IMG/VR virus record: IMGVR_UViG_3300034104_004920
Location: 33,278 to 97,277 of that record
Source: a virus
Direction: 5' to 3' (one strand)
DNA length: 64,000 nucleotides
Below the pieces are notes generated by a model. The model was not told where the DNA came from and ran no database searches. It saw nothing but the letters and a program-made list of their open reading frames with translations. Positions 15,708 through 58,295 of this stretch are shown in pieces. The translations under genes were made by a program, and so were the position numbers. Positions within the stretch are counted from its first letter, which is position 1; every line of letters begins with the position of its first letter.

Positions 15708-16112
15708 TTAAACTGCGTTCCAATTTGTTCCATTAAATACTAATGTAACACTACCGTCTGTTGCTGCTAAAATTGTATAGCTTGCTGCATTTTCAATCGT
15801 TTCTGCTCCGTTTGGAACAATGGTGATGTCACTTGTTTGGCCGGCTTCTGATTTGATTACAACTGTTCTGCCGTTAGTGCCTGCAGTTAGGTTGATCGTA
15901 ACACCGCCTCCAGCCCCCTGCACGCCCAAATAATAATTTGGAGTAGTACCAGCACTGTCTAATGTATAGGGACTGGCTGCATCAGTAACTGTGTAAACAT
16001 TAACAGTGTCGTTTCCTACACCAGAAATAACACCGTTGGTTACACTGATATTTGTTCCAACTTTAACTACACCGTAGCCTGTAGTTGAGGCTAATGGACT
16101 ATTGAATGCCAT
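15708..16112 (-). CDS. beta-rich fibre-like protein (GVVKVG repeat + shared C-domain)
   Basis: STTGYGVVKVGTNISVTNGVIS; C-domain paralogous to 16130-16435 and 16994-17497. Confidence 0.6.
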   Translation of the reverse strand: MAFNSPLASTTGYGVVKVGTNISVTNGVISGVGNDTVNVYTVTDAASPYTLDSAGTTPNYYLGVQGAGGGVTINLTAGTNGRTVVIKSEAGQTSDITIVPNGAETIENAASYTILAATDGSVTLVFNGTNWNAV

Positions 16113-16129
16113 GATTTTTTCCTTTAAAG

Positions 16130-16435
16130 TTATCCTGCTATTGTTTTCCAGTTAATGCCGTCATATAATAACAACAATCGGCCGAATTGGGTGTTTATAA
16201 TAGCAAATGCTGCACCATCAATGGTCTTGCCACCAGGTGCTGTGATTGTAATTGGGTTGACTTTGGAATTGCCCGAAAAATCTTTAACGTAATAACTTCT
16301 GCCCTTTTTATCGCCAGAAACTGCTGGTAGTATTATGGACGAACTTGTGGCTACATTACTCAGTATTACCTCGTCATCGGTAGTGATGGTATAAGGAGTT
16401 GTGGTAATTATTTTGGTGTCATAATTTATGGCCAT
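16130..16435 (-). CDS. beta-rich small domain protein
   Basis: TPYTIT...ILPA...VKD.SG....NPITIT...TIDG...LLYDG.NW. Confidence 0.6.
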   Translation of the reverse strand: MAINYDTKIITTTPYTITTDDEVILSNVATSSSIILPAVSGDKKGRSYYVKDFSGNSKVNPITITAPGGKTIDGAAFAIINTQFGRLLLLYDGINWKTIAG

Positions 16436-16436
16436 T

Positions 16437-16997
16437 TTAGTCTATCCTTGTTACCGTGACTTTGGCAGCATAACCAGTTGGTCGTGTTGGATTAACCTGT
16501 GTAGCAATAGGAGAAAAACCGGTTGTTATATCAGGACTACTCCAGCACATTTGAATATTATCACCAGCTGCTAGTGCTAGTGTAAAATTACCACTTAAAA
16601 ATACAATAGATAACACGTTGGTTAGTTGTAGCTCTTGAGTACTACCAACCACATCTACACCGTTTTTTCTTAACCAAATACTAAGCGTTGCAGTTCCACC
16701 GCTGGTTTTTGTAGTGATCAAATCAAATATTTGAGTGTATGTTCCAGCATTGCTGACAACAATACTGTTGCCACCACCACCAATGCTAACACCATTTGAA
16801 GGACCCAAAGTATCAAAGGTCACGATGTTGATTGCATTAGCAACTGGATTGGACTGAGGTGTGCTGCTGTTAATAAAACCGTAATTGTTAGACCCTGCAG
16901 CTCCAGCACTGATTATTCCATTTGTTACACTTATGCCACTTCCTACTTTTACAACTCCATAGTCTGTGGCACTAGCTATATTCTGATTGTAGCTCAT
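16437..16997 (-). CDS. C1q/BclA C-terminal-like domain protein
   Basis: GVVKVG repeat, then V.FD...SNGV......IVV..AGTY...IWLRKNG.DV.GS...L.AGD.I. Confidence 0.55.
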
Positions 16998-39639: not shown

Positions 39640-39680
39640 TATAGATTCTTTTCACAAGTTATTCAACATAAAAATTTCTC

Positions 39681-39768
39681 ACCATATCTATAACCACAAA
39701 GGACTCGAACCTCATTTCTAGAATAGTTCCAAACTACCAGAGCGACTGGCTGTGGTTATAGATATGGT
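39681..39768 (-). ncRNA. stem-closed RNA with T-loop-like hairpin
   Basis: perfect 18-bp inverted repeat accatatctataaccaca / tgtggttatagatatggt; interior contains AGG-UUCGAGU-CCU. Confidence 0.5.
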
Positions 39769-39839
39769 GCCGCATGAGGGATTCGAACTCTCGACCTACC
39801 GCTTACAAGGCGGTTGCTCTACCACTGAGCTAAAACGGC
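39765..39839 (-). tRNA. tRNA-Thr(UGU)
   Basis: cloverleaf, loop CU-UGU-AA, encoded CCA. Confidence 0.92.
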
Positions 39840-39953
39840 GGCGGCACGACAGCCCATCCTGTTTTCGTCGTGCACTGAGGCGGGTTCGCAATTGCGGGGT
39901 GTACAGGCCCGCCCAAGACAGCCACCACGTACATTACTGCAGAGGTGGTGGGC
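39840..39953 (-). ncRNA. GC-rich pseudoknotted RNA of unknown class
   Basis: GCCCA/UGGGC, CCACC/GGUGG, GGGCGGG/CCCGCCU helices and crossing GCACGAC/GUCGUGC. Confidence 0.5.
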
Positions 39954-40037
39954 ATTTTATTAGGGTAGCAAGTGGTACGATAACCGTCGCAAGTGCTTAC
40001 TCGACGTACATCACATGAGCTACCCTAATAAAATGCC
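39951..40037 (-). ncRNA. stem-closed RNA cassette
   Basis: perfect 19-bp inverted repeat ggcattttattagggtagc / gctaccctaataaaatgcc. Confidence 0.45.
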
Positions 40038-40378
40038 ACGTGATTTGATAACAAGGACACGTGGCGAAAACCCTGGCTCAGCTAGTTTTTCAGGCTGCTA
40101 GAGCAAATACCTCATCGTTGGCATTTATTTTTGTTTTGCTGTTTCGGCCAGGAAACTCCCAACCCTACGGCTTTCGCATTGCCGAGCTGTCCATTTCGTT
40201 ACTCATTGCCCCGTCGAAACCAGGTCAGGCCCATCAAAAGCATACTAAGCGCACACGCAAACTCCTACAACTTCCGTCATCTAAGCTTGAGGCCTTAAGG
40301 TGTTAAGTATGCTTTTGGTGGACCTGGGCGGAATCGAACCGCCGTCCGGAACACTTTTCTCTCTACTTCATACAGCCA
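40035..40378 (-). ncRNA. ssrA: two-piece (circularly permuted) tmRNA, tag (A)ANDEVFALAA
   Basis: acceptor piece with T-arm ending CAGGUCCACCA at 40316 precedes coding piece starting GGGCCUGACCUGGUUUCGACGGGG at 40232; G3.U70; tag ORF 40122-40090. Confidence 0.92.
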
Positions 40379-46640: not shown

Positions 46641-46729
46641 TGGCGGAAGTAGTAGGACTCGAACCTACGCGCCCCTATTAAGGACGACAGTTTAGCAAAC
46701 TGCTGGTTTAACCACTCACCCATACTTCC
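46641..46729 (-). tRNA. tRNA-Ser(GCU)
   Basis: long variable arm, UU-GCU-AA, G73, CCA. Confidence 0.92.
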
Positions 46730-46875
46730 TTAGTAAAAGACTCTAGAATGTGTTTAAGAGAATGCACTTCTCTCCAAAACTGGAACCACACCAACCACGA
46801 TATGGTATTTTGGATACTGTTTCACCGTTCTAGATCGGCTGCTGGTAAGGCACTTTGTCTCACATCTTTTACTAA
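46730..46875 (-). ncRNA. stem-closed multibranch RNA between tRNA-Asn and tRNA-Ser
   Basis: ttagtaaaaga / tcttttactaa; inner UCUAGAA/UUCUAGA, UCCAAAA/UUUUGGA, AGAGAA/UUCUCU. Confidence 0.5.
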
Positions 46876-46880
46876 AGAAC

Positions 46881-48863: not shown

Positions 48864-48966
48864 TGGTAGGAGAGGTGGGAATCGAACCCACATTACTCCG
48901 CCTTATCTAGACGGTGCTCTACGAGTTTATAAGGCTCGCCCTTAGGCCAATATTAGCAACTCTCCC
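48864..48966 (-). tRNA. 103-nt tRNA-Ile-like RNA with two anticodon-like arms (UAU and GAU)
   Basis: GGGAGAG/CUCUCCU-A-CCA; arm 1 GCGAG-C-CUUAUAA-A-CUCGU; arm 2 CCGUC-UAGAUAA-GGCGG; canonical T-arm. Confidence 0.7.
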
Positions 48967-49055
48967 ATAAGTTAGCATACATTAAAATATCCTTCAGTAA
49001 TTGCAATACTATCTCCCGTTTGCATCGGGCGGAATATTTGTATGCTAACTTATGG
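48965..49055 (-). ncRNA. stem-closed RNA cassette
   Basis: perfect 17-bp inverted repeat ccataagttagcataca / tgtatgctaacttatgg. Confidence 0.45.
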
Positions 49056-49056
49056 A

Positions 49057-49181
49057 AAGAAAGCGGTCTACTATTACACGCTGGTTACACTGTCCAGTCG
49101 TTACCGTTACGCTAGTGAGGCATCCTAGTCGCCAGTAATAGCATTATAGGTTCAGCAGAATTATCCTGCAACCGCTTTCTT
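49057..49181 (-). ncRNA. stem-closed multibranch RNA
   Basis: aagaaagcggt / accgctttctt; inner GCUAUUAC/GUAAUAGU and three short hairpins. Confidence 0.5.
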
Positions 49182-50341: not shown

Positions 50342-50381
50342 ATAATAACTTTGATATGGCTGACGCCATATCAAAACTATT

Positions 50382-50760: not shown

Positions 50761-50836
50761 TGGTTGCGGTGCCCTGGAGTCGAACCAGGTTTCTCTGGCT
50801 TATGAGGCCAGCGGATTGCCATCTTCCTCGCCCGCT
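50761..50836 (-). tRNA. initiator-like tRNA-Met(CAU)
   Basis: CU-CAU-AA, unpaired 1:72, 3' end CCGCAACCA. Confidence 0.8.
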
Positions 50837-56164: not shown

Positions 56165-56197
56165 AAAAACAAAAAGCCCACGAAAGTGGGCTTTGTT
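56165..56197 (-). terminator. intrinsic terminator
   Basis: AAAGCCCAC-UUUC-GUGGGCUUU followed by UUGUUUUU on - strand. Confidence 0.85.
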
Positions 56198-57048
56198 GCT
56201 GGATTTCTTTCTCCAGCGAGAATCCTAGTAACAGCTAGGGTCCAGTTTAAGGTTTTTTGTTCTGATAGGTTAGACTTCCTAACAACACAGTTATCATCAC
56301 ACTGTATTGTGGTAGCAGTTTAAGCACTCTGCACAAACTCCAAGGAGTGTTCTGTTAAATCTCCCTGATATGCGCCTGTGGGATTATGCGGACCCACATT
56401 CCAGCATTATCTGTTGGTCTTAGTTAGAAGAAGGCGACTGTATTTCAAACGGTTCTTTCCGTACAGTGTTATAGCACACTGTTTCGCTCTGATGCAATAG
56501 AGACTATTGCTACTCCCAAGAAGAGGTACCGATGAAGCTGGTACGGACTAACAATACTAAAAATTGTTGCTGCTATCTTGACTAGTAGTCGTACCACTTC
56601 TTGAATGATCACGGCGTATTTTTGTGTGCCTACAAAAATACCTAGCCTGAATCAAACTCAGTGGGCTCTGAGGTTTCATCGTAACAGACAACGCCAACAG
56701 GCATTGCTGGTTTTAGTATTATTGGTTGTATTGTCTTGTTATGGACAACAATAACCCTATTGTCGTTTGCTTTTAACGATGTCTACTTATACAAGGGCAG
56801 TGGCCACTGCTGATCTTGCTTTCGTTACAGTGATAGTGACCAAGGACTTAACCCTGACCACTGGACATCAACTCGTGTAGGACGTTGATCACCGGAGCCT
56901 ACATTGATAGTGCATTAGCCTGGTGAACACAGGCTTTTTCCAAAACAATACAACTAATAATACTACTAGAGGGCTGTGGCTCGGAGTATACTTTTCCCAC
57001 AATTAAGACGTATGGCAGATTACCGCCACCGCTGTCGCCCCATATTAG
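56171..57048 (-). ncRNA. large (~880 nt) structured non-coding RNA of unknown class
   Basis: no ORF of 60 aa or more on the transcribed strand; own promoter and terminator; long-range helices and pseudoknots (see findings). Confidence 0.7.
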
Positions 57049-57097: not shown

Positions 57098-57196
57098 ACC
57101 ATAGTTCAACACACTAGCGGCGTGATAAGATCAGAGCCATCTCGTTTAAAGGTTGCTATTACTGAGCAAACCTCCACTAATGTGTTGAACTATGGC
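57098..57196 (-). ncRNA. shared-stem RNA cassette 4
   Basis: GCCAUAGUUCAACACAUUAG ... CUAGUGUGUUGAACUAUGGU. Confidence 0.55.
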
Positions 57197-57265
57197 GGCA
57201 GTGTTGCTGCCTCAGGAATCCCGGCCCTCAGTGCTAAGAGAACACCTACATGCCACCCTACTCTT

Positions 57266-57337
57266 ACCATAGTTCAACACACTTCCCAACCTAACCCGGG
57301 ATGCTGTTTGTACATTAGAAATGTGTTGAACTATGGC
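57266..57337 (-). ncRNA. shared-stem RNA cassette 3
   Basis: GCCAUAGUUCAACACAUUUC ... GAAGUGUGUUGAACUAUGGU. Confidence 0.55.
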
Positions 57338-57520
57338 AACGCCCCCTAAAGCGTAGCATAGTGTCTTGTACCAGGACGACGATCCCGCTGTATCTTAATA
57401 GAGGATAGTACTATTCTACAGCGGCATAGTACTATTTTTCGCCTTGTTGCACTGTACAATCTAGGGAATGATTGTACGTCGTGTGGCACCTCAGCTCGAG
57501 GGTTCATAAGAACCTCGGTG

Positions 57521-57675
57521 TTATGGTAGCAGGGTTCGAACCTGCAGTTGAATAGTCTGTCGCACTAGCTATTCTGGTCAGGTTTTGCCATGAGTGCGAG
57601 TCCTGCATCTTAATGCAGACGACTGTCCGTATAGGCTTTTCCTCGACCGTGTTCTCCGATTTTCACCATACCATA
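57521..57675 (-). ncRNA. 155-nt tRNA-like RNA with expanded anticodon domain
   Basis: UAUGGUA/UACCAUA acceptor, D-arm, T-arm GCAGG-UUCGAAC-CCUGC; no anticodon loop. Confidence 0.7.
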
Positions 57676-57856
57676 GTTGTCCAGACCCGAGTGGAGACGT
57701 CTGAACCTTTCTATCTCATTCCACCATTAGACCCGTTAACTAGAGGTCAGCTAGATCCAAGATAAAGTGGAGTACTTGGACGTTTGTGTTGATCCACTAT
57801 CAGACCATTTGAACCTAGCGGTCGGCTAGGGTTTGAGTACAAGAGTTATGATTTTT

Positions 57857-57967
57857 ACCATATTTCAACACACTGCTGCGGCCGCAGACTACCGAGTACA
57901 TAACGCACGGAGGAGCAACCCTTGCCGATCTGCTGTACTGACTCGTCACAATGTGCTGAAATATAGC
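57857..57967 (-). ncRNA. shared-stem RNA cassette 2
   Basis: GCUAUAUUUCAGCACAUUG ... CAGUGUGUUGAAAUAUGGU. Confidence 0.55.
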
Positions 57968-58062
57968 GACCCTTTGTAGGCAGGATTCGAACCTGCAAGT
58001 GGCTTCTACCACCACCGGCCCCAATGCGGGCCTATGTTTACCAGTTTCCATCACTACGGGTC
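57967..58062 (-). ncRNA. tRNA-like RNA (class II scaffold) lacking a canonical anticodon loop
   Basis: D-arm, variable arm, T-arm GCAGG-UUCGAAU-CCUGC; acceptor GACCC-GUAG / CUAC-AAA-GGGUC. Confidence 0.65.
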
Positions 58063-58108
58063 CTCGGAGTCATGACTTCCGAGTATGGTTGAGGGTAGCT
58101 ACTCCTCT

Positions 58109-58184
58109 ACCATATTTCAACACACTGCTGAACAATCGTCAGTCTTCCTAAACAATCGTTAGGATCAATGTGCTGAAATATGCC
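58109..58184 (-). ncRNA. shared-stem RNA cassette 1 (twin CGAUUGU loops)
   Basis: GGCAUAUUUCAGCACAUUG ... CAGUGUGUUGAAAUAUGGU. Confidence 0.55.
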
Positions 58185-58266
58185 CCCAACTCGTCAATTT
58201 AGGGTAGGGCTTCAACAGCTCATCAAGGAACAAATCCCACTGTTTACAAGCCGTTGCCATGATATT

Positions 58267-58295
58267 ATTATAATATGTTTAGAACATCATTTCAA
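58267..58295 (-). promoter_or_regulatory. sigma70-type promoter of the ncRNA array
   Basis: TTGAAA-17 nt-TATAAT. Confidence 0.75.

What the first reader, a model, noticed from the sequence alone, without database searches (positions are those of the whole stretch)
57098..58260. 1.2-kb protein-free operon with four cassettes sharing one stem sequence
Seen: downstream of promoter 58267-58295 there is no credible gene. The stem GSYAUAKUUCARCACAUU...AGUGUGUUGAAMUAUGGU occurs four times in two subtypes with compensatory changes (AGUUC/GAACU versus AUUUC/GAAAU) and conserved G.U wobbles, each enclosing a different 35-75-nt payload. Two tRNA-like RNAs and further folded segments (57197-57265, 57340-57520, 57680-57855) lie between them. 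This repeat-plus-variable-insert layout is not CRISPR, because each repeat pair is inverted around its insert. Inference: a common protein-binding or processing handle displaying variable RNA modules.
Basis: partly seen in the sequence, partly recalled or inferred. Interest (0 to 1): 0.8.

Follow-up and report, generated by a model that had tools for sequence, protein, structure and literature searches.

The report
Shared-stem RNA cassettes among phage tRNAs
A freshwater T5-like phage carries, between its tRNA genes, small folded RNAs that are all closed by one near-identical long stem; the stem family is widespread in uncultured phages, is missing from Rfam, most resembles the function-unknown stable RNA III of coliphage T5, and its purpose is still unproven.

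Summary
Four hairpins on the minus strand (58183-58110, 57966-57858, 57336-57267, 57195-57099) share the arms CCAUAnnnCARCACA / UGUGUUGnnnUAUGG. These arms occur nowhere else in the 97-kb genome.

The stem belongs to a large phage-specific family:
I oriented 261 copies, nearly all inside tRNA arrays and on the tRNA strand.
- Covariation is strong: 16 of 19 pairs show double changes, and 0 of 500 shuffles reach the observed values.
- G.U wobbles sit on the sense strand (117 against 20). There is also a recurrent A.C mismatch and a conserved U.G closing pair.
- Half the copies begin exactly on the CCA of the upstream tRNA. A quarter end on the first two G's of the next tRNA.
- Inserts are never shorter than 33 nt, fall into about 173 unrelated families, are themselves structured (some tRNA-like), and recur behind different tRNAs.

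Most tRNA junctions in the same arrays are only 1-10 nt, so the hairpins are cargo rather than required separators.

Most likely they are small stable RNAs cut out of the tRNA precursor by host RNases, with the stem acting as cutting mark and protective clamp. Function is unknown. The closest known case is T5 RNA III, which has the same architecture but a different sequence. This scan had already noted the family on other DNA.

The parts
58267..58295 (-). sigma-70-type promoter (TTGAAA-17-TATAAT) heading the RNA-only stretch
   Evidence: 11 of 12 consensus positions. No terminator-like site on the minus strand before 56194-56173.
58110..58183 (-). hairpin cassette 1. Arms GCAUAUUUCAGCACA / UGUGUUGAAAUAUGG, 44-nt insert with two small hairpins that share the loop CGAUUGU
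   Evidence: z = -6.9; CM R1 scores 45.9 bits on the minus strand against 15.9 on the plus strand. The same insert occurs in L079, L038, L053 and L240 with other stem variants.
57967..58109 (-). module between cassettes 1 and 2; it contains a non-canonical tRNA-like RNA (57972-58060)
   Evidence: ARAGORN 'tRNA-???'; Rfam tRNA-Sec model 16.7 bits, below threshold. It is 91-92% identical to L079 6225-6387 and L038 1179-1339, and the similarity stops just inside the next cassette.
57858..57966 (-). hairpin cassette 2. Arms CUAUAUUUCAGCACA / UGUGUUGAAAUAUGG, 79-nt insert, two G.U pairs
   Evidence: z = -3.7; CM 42.8 bits on the minus strand against 14.7 on the plus strand. L079 has the same upstream module and the same arm but an unrelated 47-nt insert.
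57676..57857 (-). folded non-coding segment of unknown nature
   Evidence: No ORF with a family match. Part of it resembles L079 5785-5836. Not studied further.
57521..57675 (-). second tRNA-like RNA (T-arm GCAGGUUCGAACCCUGC, then acceptor-like strand)
   Evidence: Direct repeat D3 of the T-arm; Rfam tRNA model 15.5 bits at 57521-57592; 84% identical to L079 5115-5269.
57337..57520 (-). non-coding module that ends ...GGGGGCGUUG and runs straight into the CCA that starts cassette 3
   Evidence: 79-81% identical to L031 and L079 segments.
57267..57336 (-). hairpin cassette 3. Arms CCAUAGUUCAACACA / UGUGUUGAACUAUGG, 40-nt insert; the stem extends to about 21 bp
   Evidence: z = -6.7; CM 51.1 bits on the minus strand against 35.4 on the plus strand. 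The same insert occurs in L090 594-525 with a different stem variant.
57196..57266 (-). conserved small RNA, about 72 nt, that starts GG and ends in a stem-loop + N + CCA
   Evidence: homologues in 6 other viral-contig loci, always between a 3' arm and a 5' arm. The internal helix GGCAG/CUGCC shows compensatory changes.
57099..57195 (-). hairpin cassette 4. Arms CCAUAGUUCAACACA / UGUGUUGAACUAUGG, 67-nt insert with two hairpins
   Evidence: z = -7.0; CM 47.1 bits on the minus strand against 32.3 on the plus strand. The same insert occurs in L079, L038 and L102; in L102 it sits on a stem with two G.U pairs, directly after tRNA-Thr.
48961..49059 (-). further member of the stem family outside the reported range (arms CCAUAAGUUAGCAUACA / UGUAUGCUAACUUAUGG)
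   Evidence: CM 33.7 bits; 17-bp perfect inverted repeat; fold z = -7.1. By eye its insert resembles the largest insert family.
39678..39771 (-). further member that starts on the CCA of tRNA-Thr; 19-bp stem closing a cloverleaf-like insert with a T-arm
   Evidence: CM 25 bits. tRNA-Thr is at 39765-39839.

Best explanation
The four cassettes are genes for small structured RNAs embedded in a polycistronic tRNA / tRNA-like transcript of a T5-like phage.

Each is closed by a stem of 17-21 base pairs. The stem's first bases are the CCA 3' end of the RNA upstream. In many relatives its last bases are the 5' G's of the RNA downstream.

The stem acts at the RNA level in two ways. It marks and positions the cuts that separate the neighbouring CCA-ended RNAs from the cassette. 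It also clamps the two ends of the released insert, so that the insert survives as a stable small RNA, as T5 RNA III is annotated to do.

The nucleases are inferred to be the host's. RNase P would make the 3' side cut at the next tRNA. RNase III (stem cleavage), or RNase P/E acting at the frayed A-U-rich base of the stem, would free the CCA end.

The arms, repeated in every cassette, also serve as homology for recombination. That shuffles inserts between sites and between phages.

Shown here: RNA-level pairing, strand, junctions with tRNA ends, family breadth, and structured inserts that recur across phages.
Inferred: transcription, cleavage, the enzymes, and stability.
What the released RNAs do is unknown. 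My guess is decoys or mimics of tRNA-like ligands.
For: - Pairing under selection: 93.4% of cells paired, 16 of 19 pairs with double-sided changes, 0 of 500 shuffles reach the observed values, and slid controls collapse.
- Strand: leaving out stem position 8, the single site of the recurrent A.C mismatch, there are 117 G.U against 20 A.C when read on the tRNA strand. In the window, CM scores are higher on the minus strand for all four.
- Setting: 261 of 269 hairpins lie within 3 kb of tRNAs. 133 of 261 start on the CCA of an ARAGORN tRNA, and 59 end 1-2 nt inside the next tRNA.
- Sequence constraint: arms have a median 87% identity, while flanking proteins are 33-82% identical.
- Inserts matter: none is shorter than 33 nt. 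There are 173 families, members of which recur in different phages. Compensatory changes inside inserts can be seen by eye in the listed family members (not formally scored). A T-arm-like motif occurs in 24 of 240 against 4.7 expected, and 39678-39771 has a cloverleaf-like insert.
- Not mere separators: only 108 of 1381 adjacent tRNA pairs carry the hairpin, and most junctions are 1-10 nt.
- Precedent: the T5 record annotates RNA I, III and IV as 'stable RNA with unknown functions' in its tRNA region. RNA III folds as a 20-bp stem that starts on the CCA of RNA I and ends on the G's of tRNA-His, with three inner hairpins. Its annotated ends lie 4 bp inside that stem and leave a 2-nt 3' overhang, the geometry of an RNase III cut (my reading).
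- Established knowledge: bacterial RNase III cleaves perfect duplexes of about 20 bp, and RNase P cleaves 5' of tRNAs.
- Recombination at the arms: L080, 97% identical to the window, lacks 57160-57320, which joins cassettes 4 and 3. Window and L079 share the upstream module and arm but not the insert. In 12 of 24 insert families the insert sits behind different tRNAs.
Against:
- RNase III needs no such strict sequence, so the near-invariant boxes CCAUAU and RCACAUU, the fixed U.G pair and the A.C mismatch are not explained by it.
- The phage encodes no RNase III, dsRBD or Ro protein, so any specific partner is unidentified.
- The T5 RNA III ends come from a GenBank annotation whose experimental basis I could not read.
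- T5 RNA III is not a sequence member of this family (CM 10.3 bits, E = 3.6).
- Compensatory changes inside inserts could merely keep the loop compact.
Confidence: 0.55

Rival explanations
1. The stem is a sequence-specific handle for a dedicated protein, of the phage or of the host. That protein binds, loads or delivers whatever RNA module sits on top. On this reading the conserved boxes, the U.G pair and the A.C mismatch are recognition elements, and cutting is secondary.
For: Sequence-level conservation goes far beyond what pairing requires. The two boxes are nearly invariant while the 3-4 central pairs vary freely. The U.G pair is kept in 75 of 102 copies and the A.C mismatch in 90 of 261. 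About 173 unrelated insert families sit on one stem. The family is essentially confined to phages: of 13 pattern matches in 596 Gb of prokaryote genomes, the only convincing ones (paired stem middle plus a dense tRNA array) are 6 matches on 5 short tRNA-rich MAG contigs.
Against: No candidate protein was found. The phage lacks RNase III, dsRBD, TROVE and HNH domains. No gene cluster is shared by more than 29 of the 130 loci, and the commonest are phosphoesterases, an RNase H-like protein, dCMP deaminase and HNH nucleases. Other cassettes in the same arrays use quite different stems with the same CCA...UGG frame, which argues against one obligatory reader.
Confidence: 0.2
2. The conservation is mainly a DNA-level effect. 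The arms are recombination joints of selfish or exchangeable cassettes (MITE-, attC- or linker-like), and concerted evolution homogenises them. On this reading the RNA hairpin is a by-product.
For: Deletion between two arms in the 97%-identical relative L080. Insert swapping at an otherwise conserved site in window against L079. The same insert sits behind different tRNAs in 12 of 24 families. The hairpin is present or absent at the same tRNA junction in different phages.
Against: The strong strand asymmetry of G.U against A.C, and the orientation always matching the tRNAs, are not expected for double-stranded DNA sites. This genome has no tyrosine integrase, Y1 transposase or HNH nuclease. 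There is no consistent target-site duplication (flanks). The stems lack the attC layout of R/L boxes with extrahelical bases. Covariation within pairs needs a folded single strand.
Confidence: 0.13
3. These are generic processing hairpins whose inserts are waste. The long duplex only gives RNase III a site, and the excised piece is degraded.
For: Perfect duplexes of 17-21 bp are expected RNase III substrates (established knowledge). Inserts at the same junction differ completely between phages. The intervening segment of the phage's own two-piece tmRNA has the same CCA-hairpin-GG layout and would be discarded, going by what is known of two-piece tmRNAs.
Against: Most tRNA junctions manage with spacers of 1-10 nt, so a hairpin is not needed. 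No insert is under 33 nt. Insert families are kept across phages with compensatory changes, and some are tRNA-like. The T5 analogue is annotated as a stable RNA.
Confidence: 0.1

Closest known systems
Coliphage T5 RNA III (and RNA I, RNA IV): 'stable RNA with unknown functions' in the T5 tRNA region (GenBank AY543070, misc_RNA rnaIII)
   Same: It lies in the tRNA cluster of a T5-type phage, on the tRNA strand. A 20-bp closing stem begins on the CCA of the upstream RNA (RNA I) and ends on the first G's of the next tRNA (tRNA-His). Its interior has several hairpins. It is about 100 nt long and has no known function.
   Different: The stem sequence differs (CACAAUUGAAAAUUCG... rather than CCAUAUnnnnRCACAUU). 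The family model scores it only 10.3 bits. T5 has one such unit, not a repeated shared stem carrying many inserts. The family studied here was not found in any cultured phage record, though the single blastn search is weakly sensitive for 15-nt arms.
RNase III processing stems of rRNA operons and of phage T7/T3 early transcripts
   Same: Long duplexes are formed by sequences flanking the RNA to be released. They are repeated along one polycistronic phage or stable-RNA transcript, and the copies share sequence within a phage (from established knowledge, not tested here).
   Different: Here the stem encloses a small variable RNA rather than flanking a large rRNA or separating mRNAs. It is anchored on tRNA CCA and 5' ends. 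The stem is conserved in sequence across phages whose neighbouring proteins are only 33-82% identical. No cleavage has been shown.
Intervening segment of circularly permuted (two-piece) tmRNA genes (Rfam RF04321, RF01850)
   Same: This is a hairpin that fills the gap between a CCA 3' end and the 5' GG of an acceptor stem. The window's own tmRNA has one at 40226-40326, with arms related to those of cassette 48961-49059.
   Different: In tmRNA the CCA and the GG belong to one acceptor stem and the segment is discarded. In the cassettes they belong to two different RNAs, and the insert is conserved and structured.
Phage T4 species 1 and species 2 RNAs (rnaC, rnaD)
   Different: No sequence or model comparison was made here. 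They are not known to share a repeated stem.

Membership tests
Phage tRNA-array 'CCA-clamp' hairpin family (undescribed; defined here by model R1) | Arms CCAUAU-N3-4-RCACA(UU) / (AG)UGUGYU-N3-4-AUAUGG that pair with each other | tested here: met
   All four cassettes score 42.8-51.1 bits, E <= 2e-8. Arms are listed.
Phage tRNA-array 'CCA-clamp' hairpin family (undescribed; defined here by model R1) | Lies in a tRNA array on the tRNA strand, starting on the CCA of the upstream RNA | tested here: met
   Same strand as all 24 tRNAs. Cassettes 3 and 4 start with CCA and cassette 2 with CUA after a tRNA-like RNA. Cassette 1 (GCA) follows a 75-nt leader, not a tRNA.
Phage tRNA-array 'CCA-clamp' hairpin family (undescribed; defined here by model R1) | Structured insert of at least 33 nt | tested here: met
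   Inserts of 44, 79, 40 and 67 nt; folds.
T5 RNA III-type stable RNA | Closing stem from the CCA of the upstream RNA to the 5' G's of the downstream tRNA, with a multi-hairpin interior | tested here: met
   compared side by side.
T5 RNA III-type stable RNA | Sequence or profile homology to T5 RNA III | tested here: not met
   CM R1 on T5 gives 10.3 bits, E = 3.6. blastn of the region against phage records finds only tRNA-Tyr.
T5 RNA III-type stable RNA | Accumulates as a discrete stable RNA in infected cells | not testable with these tools
RNase III substrate | Uninterrupted duplex of about two helical turns | tested here: met
   17-21 bp stems in the predicted folds and inverted repeats.
RNase III substrate | Cleavage by RNase III with 2-nt 3' overhangs | not testable with these tools
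   There is only the indirect hint from the annotated ends of T5 RNA III.
CRISPR array | Direct repeats separated by spacers, with cas genes or a leader | tested here: not met
   Repeats alternate in orientation and pair around each insert. The Rfam E-value search returned no match in this stretch.
Integron attC / IS200-type hairpin sites / MITE | Cognate recombinase or transposase present; R/L boxes with extrahelical bases, or a target-site duplication | tested here: not met
   No Phage_integrase, Y1_Tnp or HNH in the genome. Stems are perfect apart from one A.C, and the flanks show no consistent duplication.
Y RNA / YrlA (Ro-bound tRNA-like RNAs) | Rfam model match and a Ro (TROVE) gene | tested here: not met
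   No Rfam match at E <= 10 and no TROVE domain.
Any Rfam 15 family | Score at or above the family's gathering threshold | tested here: not met
   Only sub-threshold matches to plant miRNA-precursor models (generic long hairpins) and weak tRNA hits.

The most novel reading that the evidence does not exclude
The near-invariant stem is a universal adaptor read by a still unidentified factor. Through it, phages display a large exchangeable library of small structured RNAs: at least 173 insert families in a sample of 261. Many of these are tRNA-like. They could, for example, act as decoys for host tRNA-targeting defences or for tRNA-handling enzymes, which would amount to an RNA 'cassette' system without precedent in phages.
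Probability: 0.15. Interest if true: 0.85.

Novelty: new variant of a known kind. Interest (0 to 1): 0.6.

Why it matters
Phage tRNA arrays are now read mainly as a way to replace host tRNAs destroyed by defence nucleases. This work shows that the arrays of many uncultured phages also carry a second, numerous class of small RNAs. These RNAs are framed by one conserved stem and anchored on tRNA ends.

The T5 record has annotated stable RNAs of this architecture with no known function. A family with hundreds of members, a clear consensus and natural variants makes the question open to experiment:
- which nuclease cuts;
- whether the RNAs accumulate;
- what binds the stem;
- whether removing the cassettes changes host range against tRNA-targeting defences.

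The stem could also be tried as a natural scaffold for expressing small RNAs from tRNA operons.

Tried and rejected
- Rfam at permissive thresholds gave nothing meaningful.
- blastn of the region, and of a typical hairpin, against 50,697 cultured phage records found only tRNA-Tyr and one chance 21-mer. No cultured member was found. The low-complexity filter may hide A/U-rich arms.
- I tested whether the inserts are guides or antisense RNAs. blastn-short of the four inserts against the whole phage genome gave only chance matches of 8-15 nt. Host genomes could not be tested because the host is unknown.
- I looked for a partner protein by clustering 2,097 ORFs from 130 loci. No cluster occurs in more than 29 loci, and none is an obvious RNA-binding protein.
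- Alternative pairing, with the 3' arm of one cassette pairing with the 5' arm of the next around the tRNA-like module, is possible in the window for cassettes 1-2 and 3-4, and RNAalifold even predicts it. I rejected it as the selected fold because in relatives the stem subtypes co-vary only within the short-insert pairs (L031, L079, L038).
- I checked whether everything upstream of a cassette ends like a tRNA. Among copies with no ARAGORN tRNA upstream, 47 of 122 have a perfect 7-bp acceptor-like partner, against 21 in shuffles. This is only modest support.
- Five literature searches found no description of the family. The SegB paper (PMC2330249) held nothing on stable RNAs.
Full report
WHAT IS THERE

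The window is part of a 97-kb IMG/VR virus record. It has T5-like early-region content: NAD-dependent DNA ligase, ThyX, two metallophosphoesterases and a UvdE endonuclease. It carries 24 tRNA genes and a two-piece tmRNA, all on the minus strand.

Downstream of a near-consensus promoter at 58295-58267 lies about 1.2 kb with no ORF longer than 79 aa. None of these ORFs has a significant PHROG match; one 31-aa ORF has only a marginal hit, E 0.096.

Read on the minus strand, this stretch holds four hairpins: 58183-58110, 57966-57858, 57336-57267 and 57195-57099. Their 15-nt arms follow CCAUAnnnCARCACA / UGUGUUGnnnUAUGG. With the flanking U.G/U-A pairs and the A-U/G.U pairs outside, the stems reach 17-21 bp. 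Each folds far better than shuffled sequence, z = -3.7 to -7.0.

The motif occurs 8 times in the whole genome, all of them here, and no shuffle reaches that number.

THE STEM IS AN RNA STRUCTURE UNDER SELECTION AND BELONGS TO A LARGE PHAGE FAMILY

My rough estimate of the chance expectation for the two-arm pattern is about two.
- The same two-arm pattern in 596 Gb of prokaryote genomes gave 13 matches. The only convincing ones, with a paired stem middle inside a dense tRNA array, are 6 matches on 5 short tRNA-rich MAG contigs, that is, binned phage DNA.
- In the fetched loci I found 269 hairpins, 261 of which could be oriented. Of the 269, 261 lie within 3 kb of tRNA genes.
- On an alignment of 102 different copies, 93.4% of cells pair and 16 of 19 pairs show changes on both sides. 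None of 500 column shuffles reaches any of the five measures, and sliding the partner by 1-3 columns destroys the signal.
- Read on the strand of the neighbouring tRNAs, non-Watson-Crick pairs are G.U 117 times and A.C 20 times, if one position is set aside. That position, the eighth pair, carries a recurrent A.C mismatch (90 of 261). The pair that closes the conserved part is U.G in 75 of 102 copies.
- The arms are conserved in sequence, not only in pairing. Their median identity is 87%, while proteins encoded next to them are 33-82% identical. Only the three or four central pairs vary freely.

ANCHORING ON tRNA ENDS

- In 133 of 261 copies the first three bases of the 5' arm are the CCA of an ARAGORN-predicted tRNA. 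In 59 copies the last one or two G's of the 3' arm are the first bases of the next tRNA.
- In the window, cassettes 3 and 4 start with CCA after non-tRNA modules.
- One of these modules, 57196-57266, is a conserved small RNA of about 72 nt. It starts GG and ends in a stem-loop + N + CCA. I found it in six other viral-contig loci, always between a 3' arm and a 5' arm.
- The stretch is therefore an alternation of 'GG...CCA' RNAs (tRNA-like or minihelix-like) and stem-closed cassettes.
- Model R1, built from the family, finds two more members in the window: 48961-49059 and 39678-39771. The latter starts on the CCA of tRNA-Thr and closes a cloverleaf-like insert with a T-arm.

THE INSERTS

- Inserts are 33-199 nt long, with a median of 54, and none is shorter than 33.
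- The 261 inserts fall into 173 BLAST families, of which 126 are singletons.
- Members of a family recur in different phages on different stem variants. All four window inserts have relatives elsewhere.
- The listed family members show, by eye, compensatory changes inside their own small hairpins. I did not score this formally.
- A T-arm-like motif is enriched, 24 of 240 against 4.7 in shuffles. It often sits directly before the 3' arm, as in a tRNA.
- The four window inserts have no significant complementarity to the phage's own genome.

NOT A GENERAL SEPARATOR, AND EXCHANGEABLE

- In the same arrays only 108 of 1,381 adjacent tRNA pairs carry the hairpin, and most junctions are 1-10 nt.
- The same junction (for example tRNA-Lys to tRNA-Met) holds many unrelated inserts or, rarely, none.
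- The same insert family sits behind different tRNAs in 12 of 24 families.
- L080, 97% identical to the window, has lost 57160-57320 by a join between the arms of cassettes 4 and 3.
- Window and L079 share the upstream tRNA-like module and arm at 92% identity but then carry unrelated inserts.
- The arms are thus also recombination joints.

CLOSEST KNOWN

The T5 GenBank record annotates RNA I, III, IV, 2H and X as stable RNAs of unknown function within its tRNA region. RNA III folds as a 20-bp stem, GCCACAAUUGAAAAUUCGUA / UGCGAGUUUUCAAUUGUGGC. It begins on the CCA of RNA I, ends on the G's of tRNA-His and encloses three hairpins. This is the same architecture.

Its annotated ends lie four pairs inside the stem and leave a 2-nt 3' overhang. 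This is the geometry of an RNase III cut, but I could not check the experimental basis of the annotation.

By sequence it is not a member (10.3 bits). No cultured phage record showed the family's arms.

The phage's own two-piece tmRNA has an intervening hairpin with the same CCA-hairpin-GG layout.

MECHANISM

The best-supported reading is that the cassettes are small RNAs matured together with the tRNAs. RNase P would cut at the next tRNA. A second host nuclease would free the CCA end. RNase III, acting on a duplex of this length, is the obvious candidate. RNase P or E acting at the A-U-rich stem base, once the two G-C pairs are gone, is an alternative. The stem would then protect the released RNA.

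None of this is shown. The strict sequence conservation, the U.G pair and the A.C mismatch hint at a more specific reader. No such gene is visible in this phage: it has no RNase III, dsRBD, TROVE, integrase, Y1 transposase or HNH domain. No gene is shared widely among the loci either.

A purely DNA-level explanation is disfavoured by the strand asymmetry and the absence of recombinases. A 'waste spacer' explanation is disfavoured by the minimum insert size, the insert families that recur across phages, and the T5 precedent.

STANDING

This scan's earlier notes describe the same family on other genomes and reach similar conclusions. I arrived at T5 RNA III independently. The family is absent from Rfam and from the papers I could search. 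I rate it a new, widespread variant of a known but unexplained kind, the stable RNAs of phage tRNA clusters.

Noticed in passing
window 58165-58260 (-): A 31-aa ORF (MATACKQWDLFLDELL...) starts with ATG at about the predicted transcription start, 7 nt after the -10 box, and runs into the 5' arm of cassette 1. It could be a leaderless mini-ORF or mere chance. Its only PHROG match is marginal (E 0.096).
   Followed up: partly
L080 650-724, against window 57099-57336: A 97%-identical relative has a hybrid cassette made by deleting 57160-57320, with the junction between the arms of cassettes 4 and 3. This is direct evidence that the repeated arms recombine.
   Followed up: partly
window 39951-40037, 46726-46879 and 50344-50381 (-): Other perfect long stems (15-19 bp) between tRNAs or after the tmRNA, with different arm sequences. 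One of them (50344-50381) has only a 4-nt loop and exactly fills the gap between tRNA-Pro and tRNA-Ala.
   Followed up: no
window 40226-40326 (-): The intervening segment of the two-piece tmRNA is a hairpin of about 11 bp between the CCA of the acceptor piece and the GGG of the coding piece. Its arms (AAAGCAUACU/AGUAUGCUUUU) resemble those of cassette 48961-49059.
   Followed up: partly
window 50765-50835 and 48867-48966 (-): Rfam's tRNA model finds two tRNAs (39.5 and 35.9 bits) that ARAGORN did not list.
   Followed up: no
L153, L201, L214, L220, L191 (tRNA-Glu to tRNA-Lys junction): A second stem family with the same frame but another sequence (CCAUUUGUUUUGCUGACG ... CGUCAGCAAAACAAAUGG) encloses an insert of about 90 nt. 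This shows that the CCA...UGG clamp layout is more general than any one stem sequence.
   Followed up: no
L255 (T5) 15849-16567: T5 annotates a 719-nt 'RNAX, stable RNA with unknown functions' directly upstream of tRNA-Arg. The window has an RNA-only unit of about 880 nt (56171-57048) right after the cassettes, and the two may be counterparts.
   Followed up: no
loci L190, L153 and 26 others: An RNaseH_like (PF04308) protein of about 158 aa is encoded near the tRNA arrays in 28 of 130 hairpin-bearing loci. HNH endonucleases occur in about 34 loci. No match to this RNaseH_like cluster was seen in window 36000-64000, and no HNH domain in the whole genome.
   Followed up: partly
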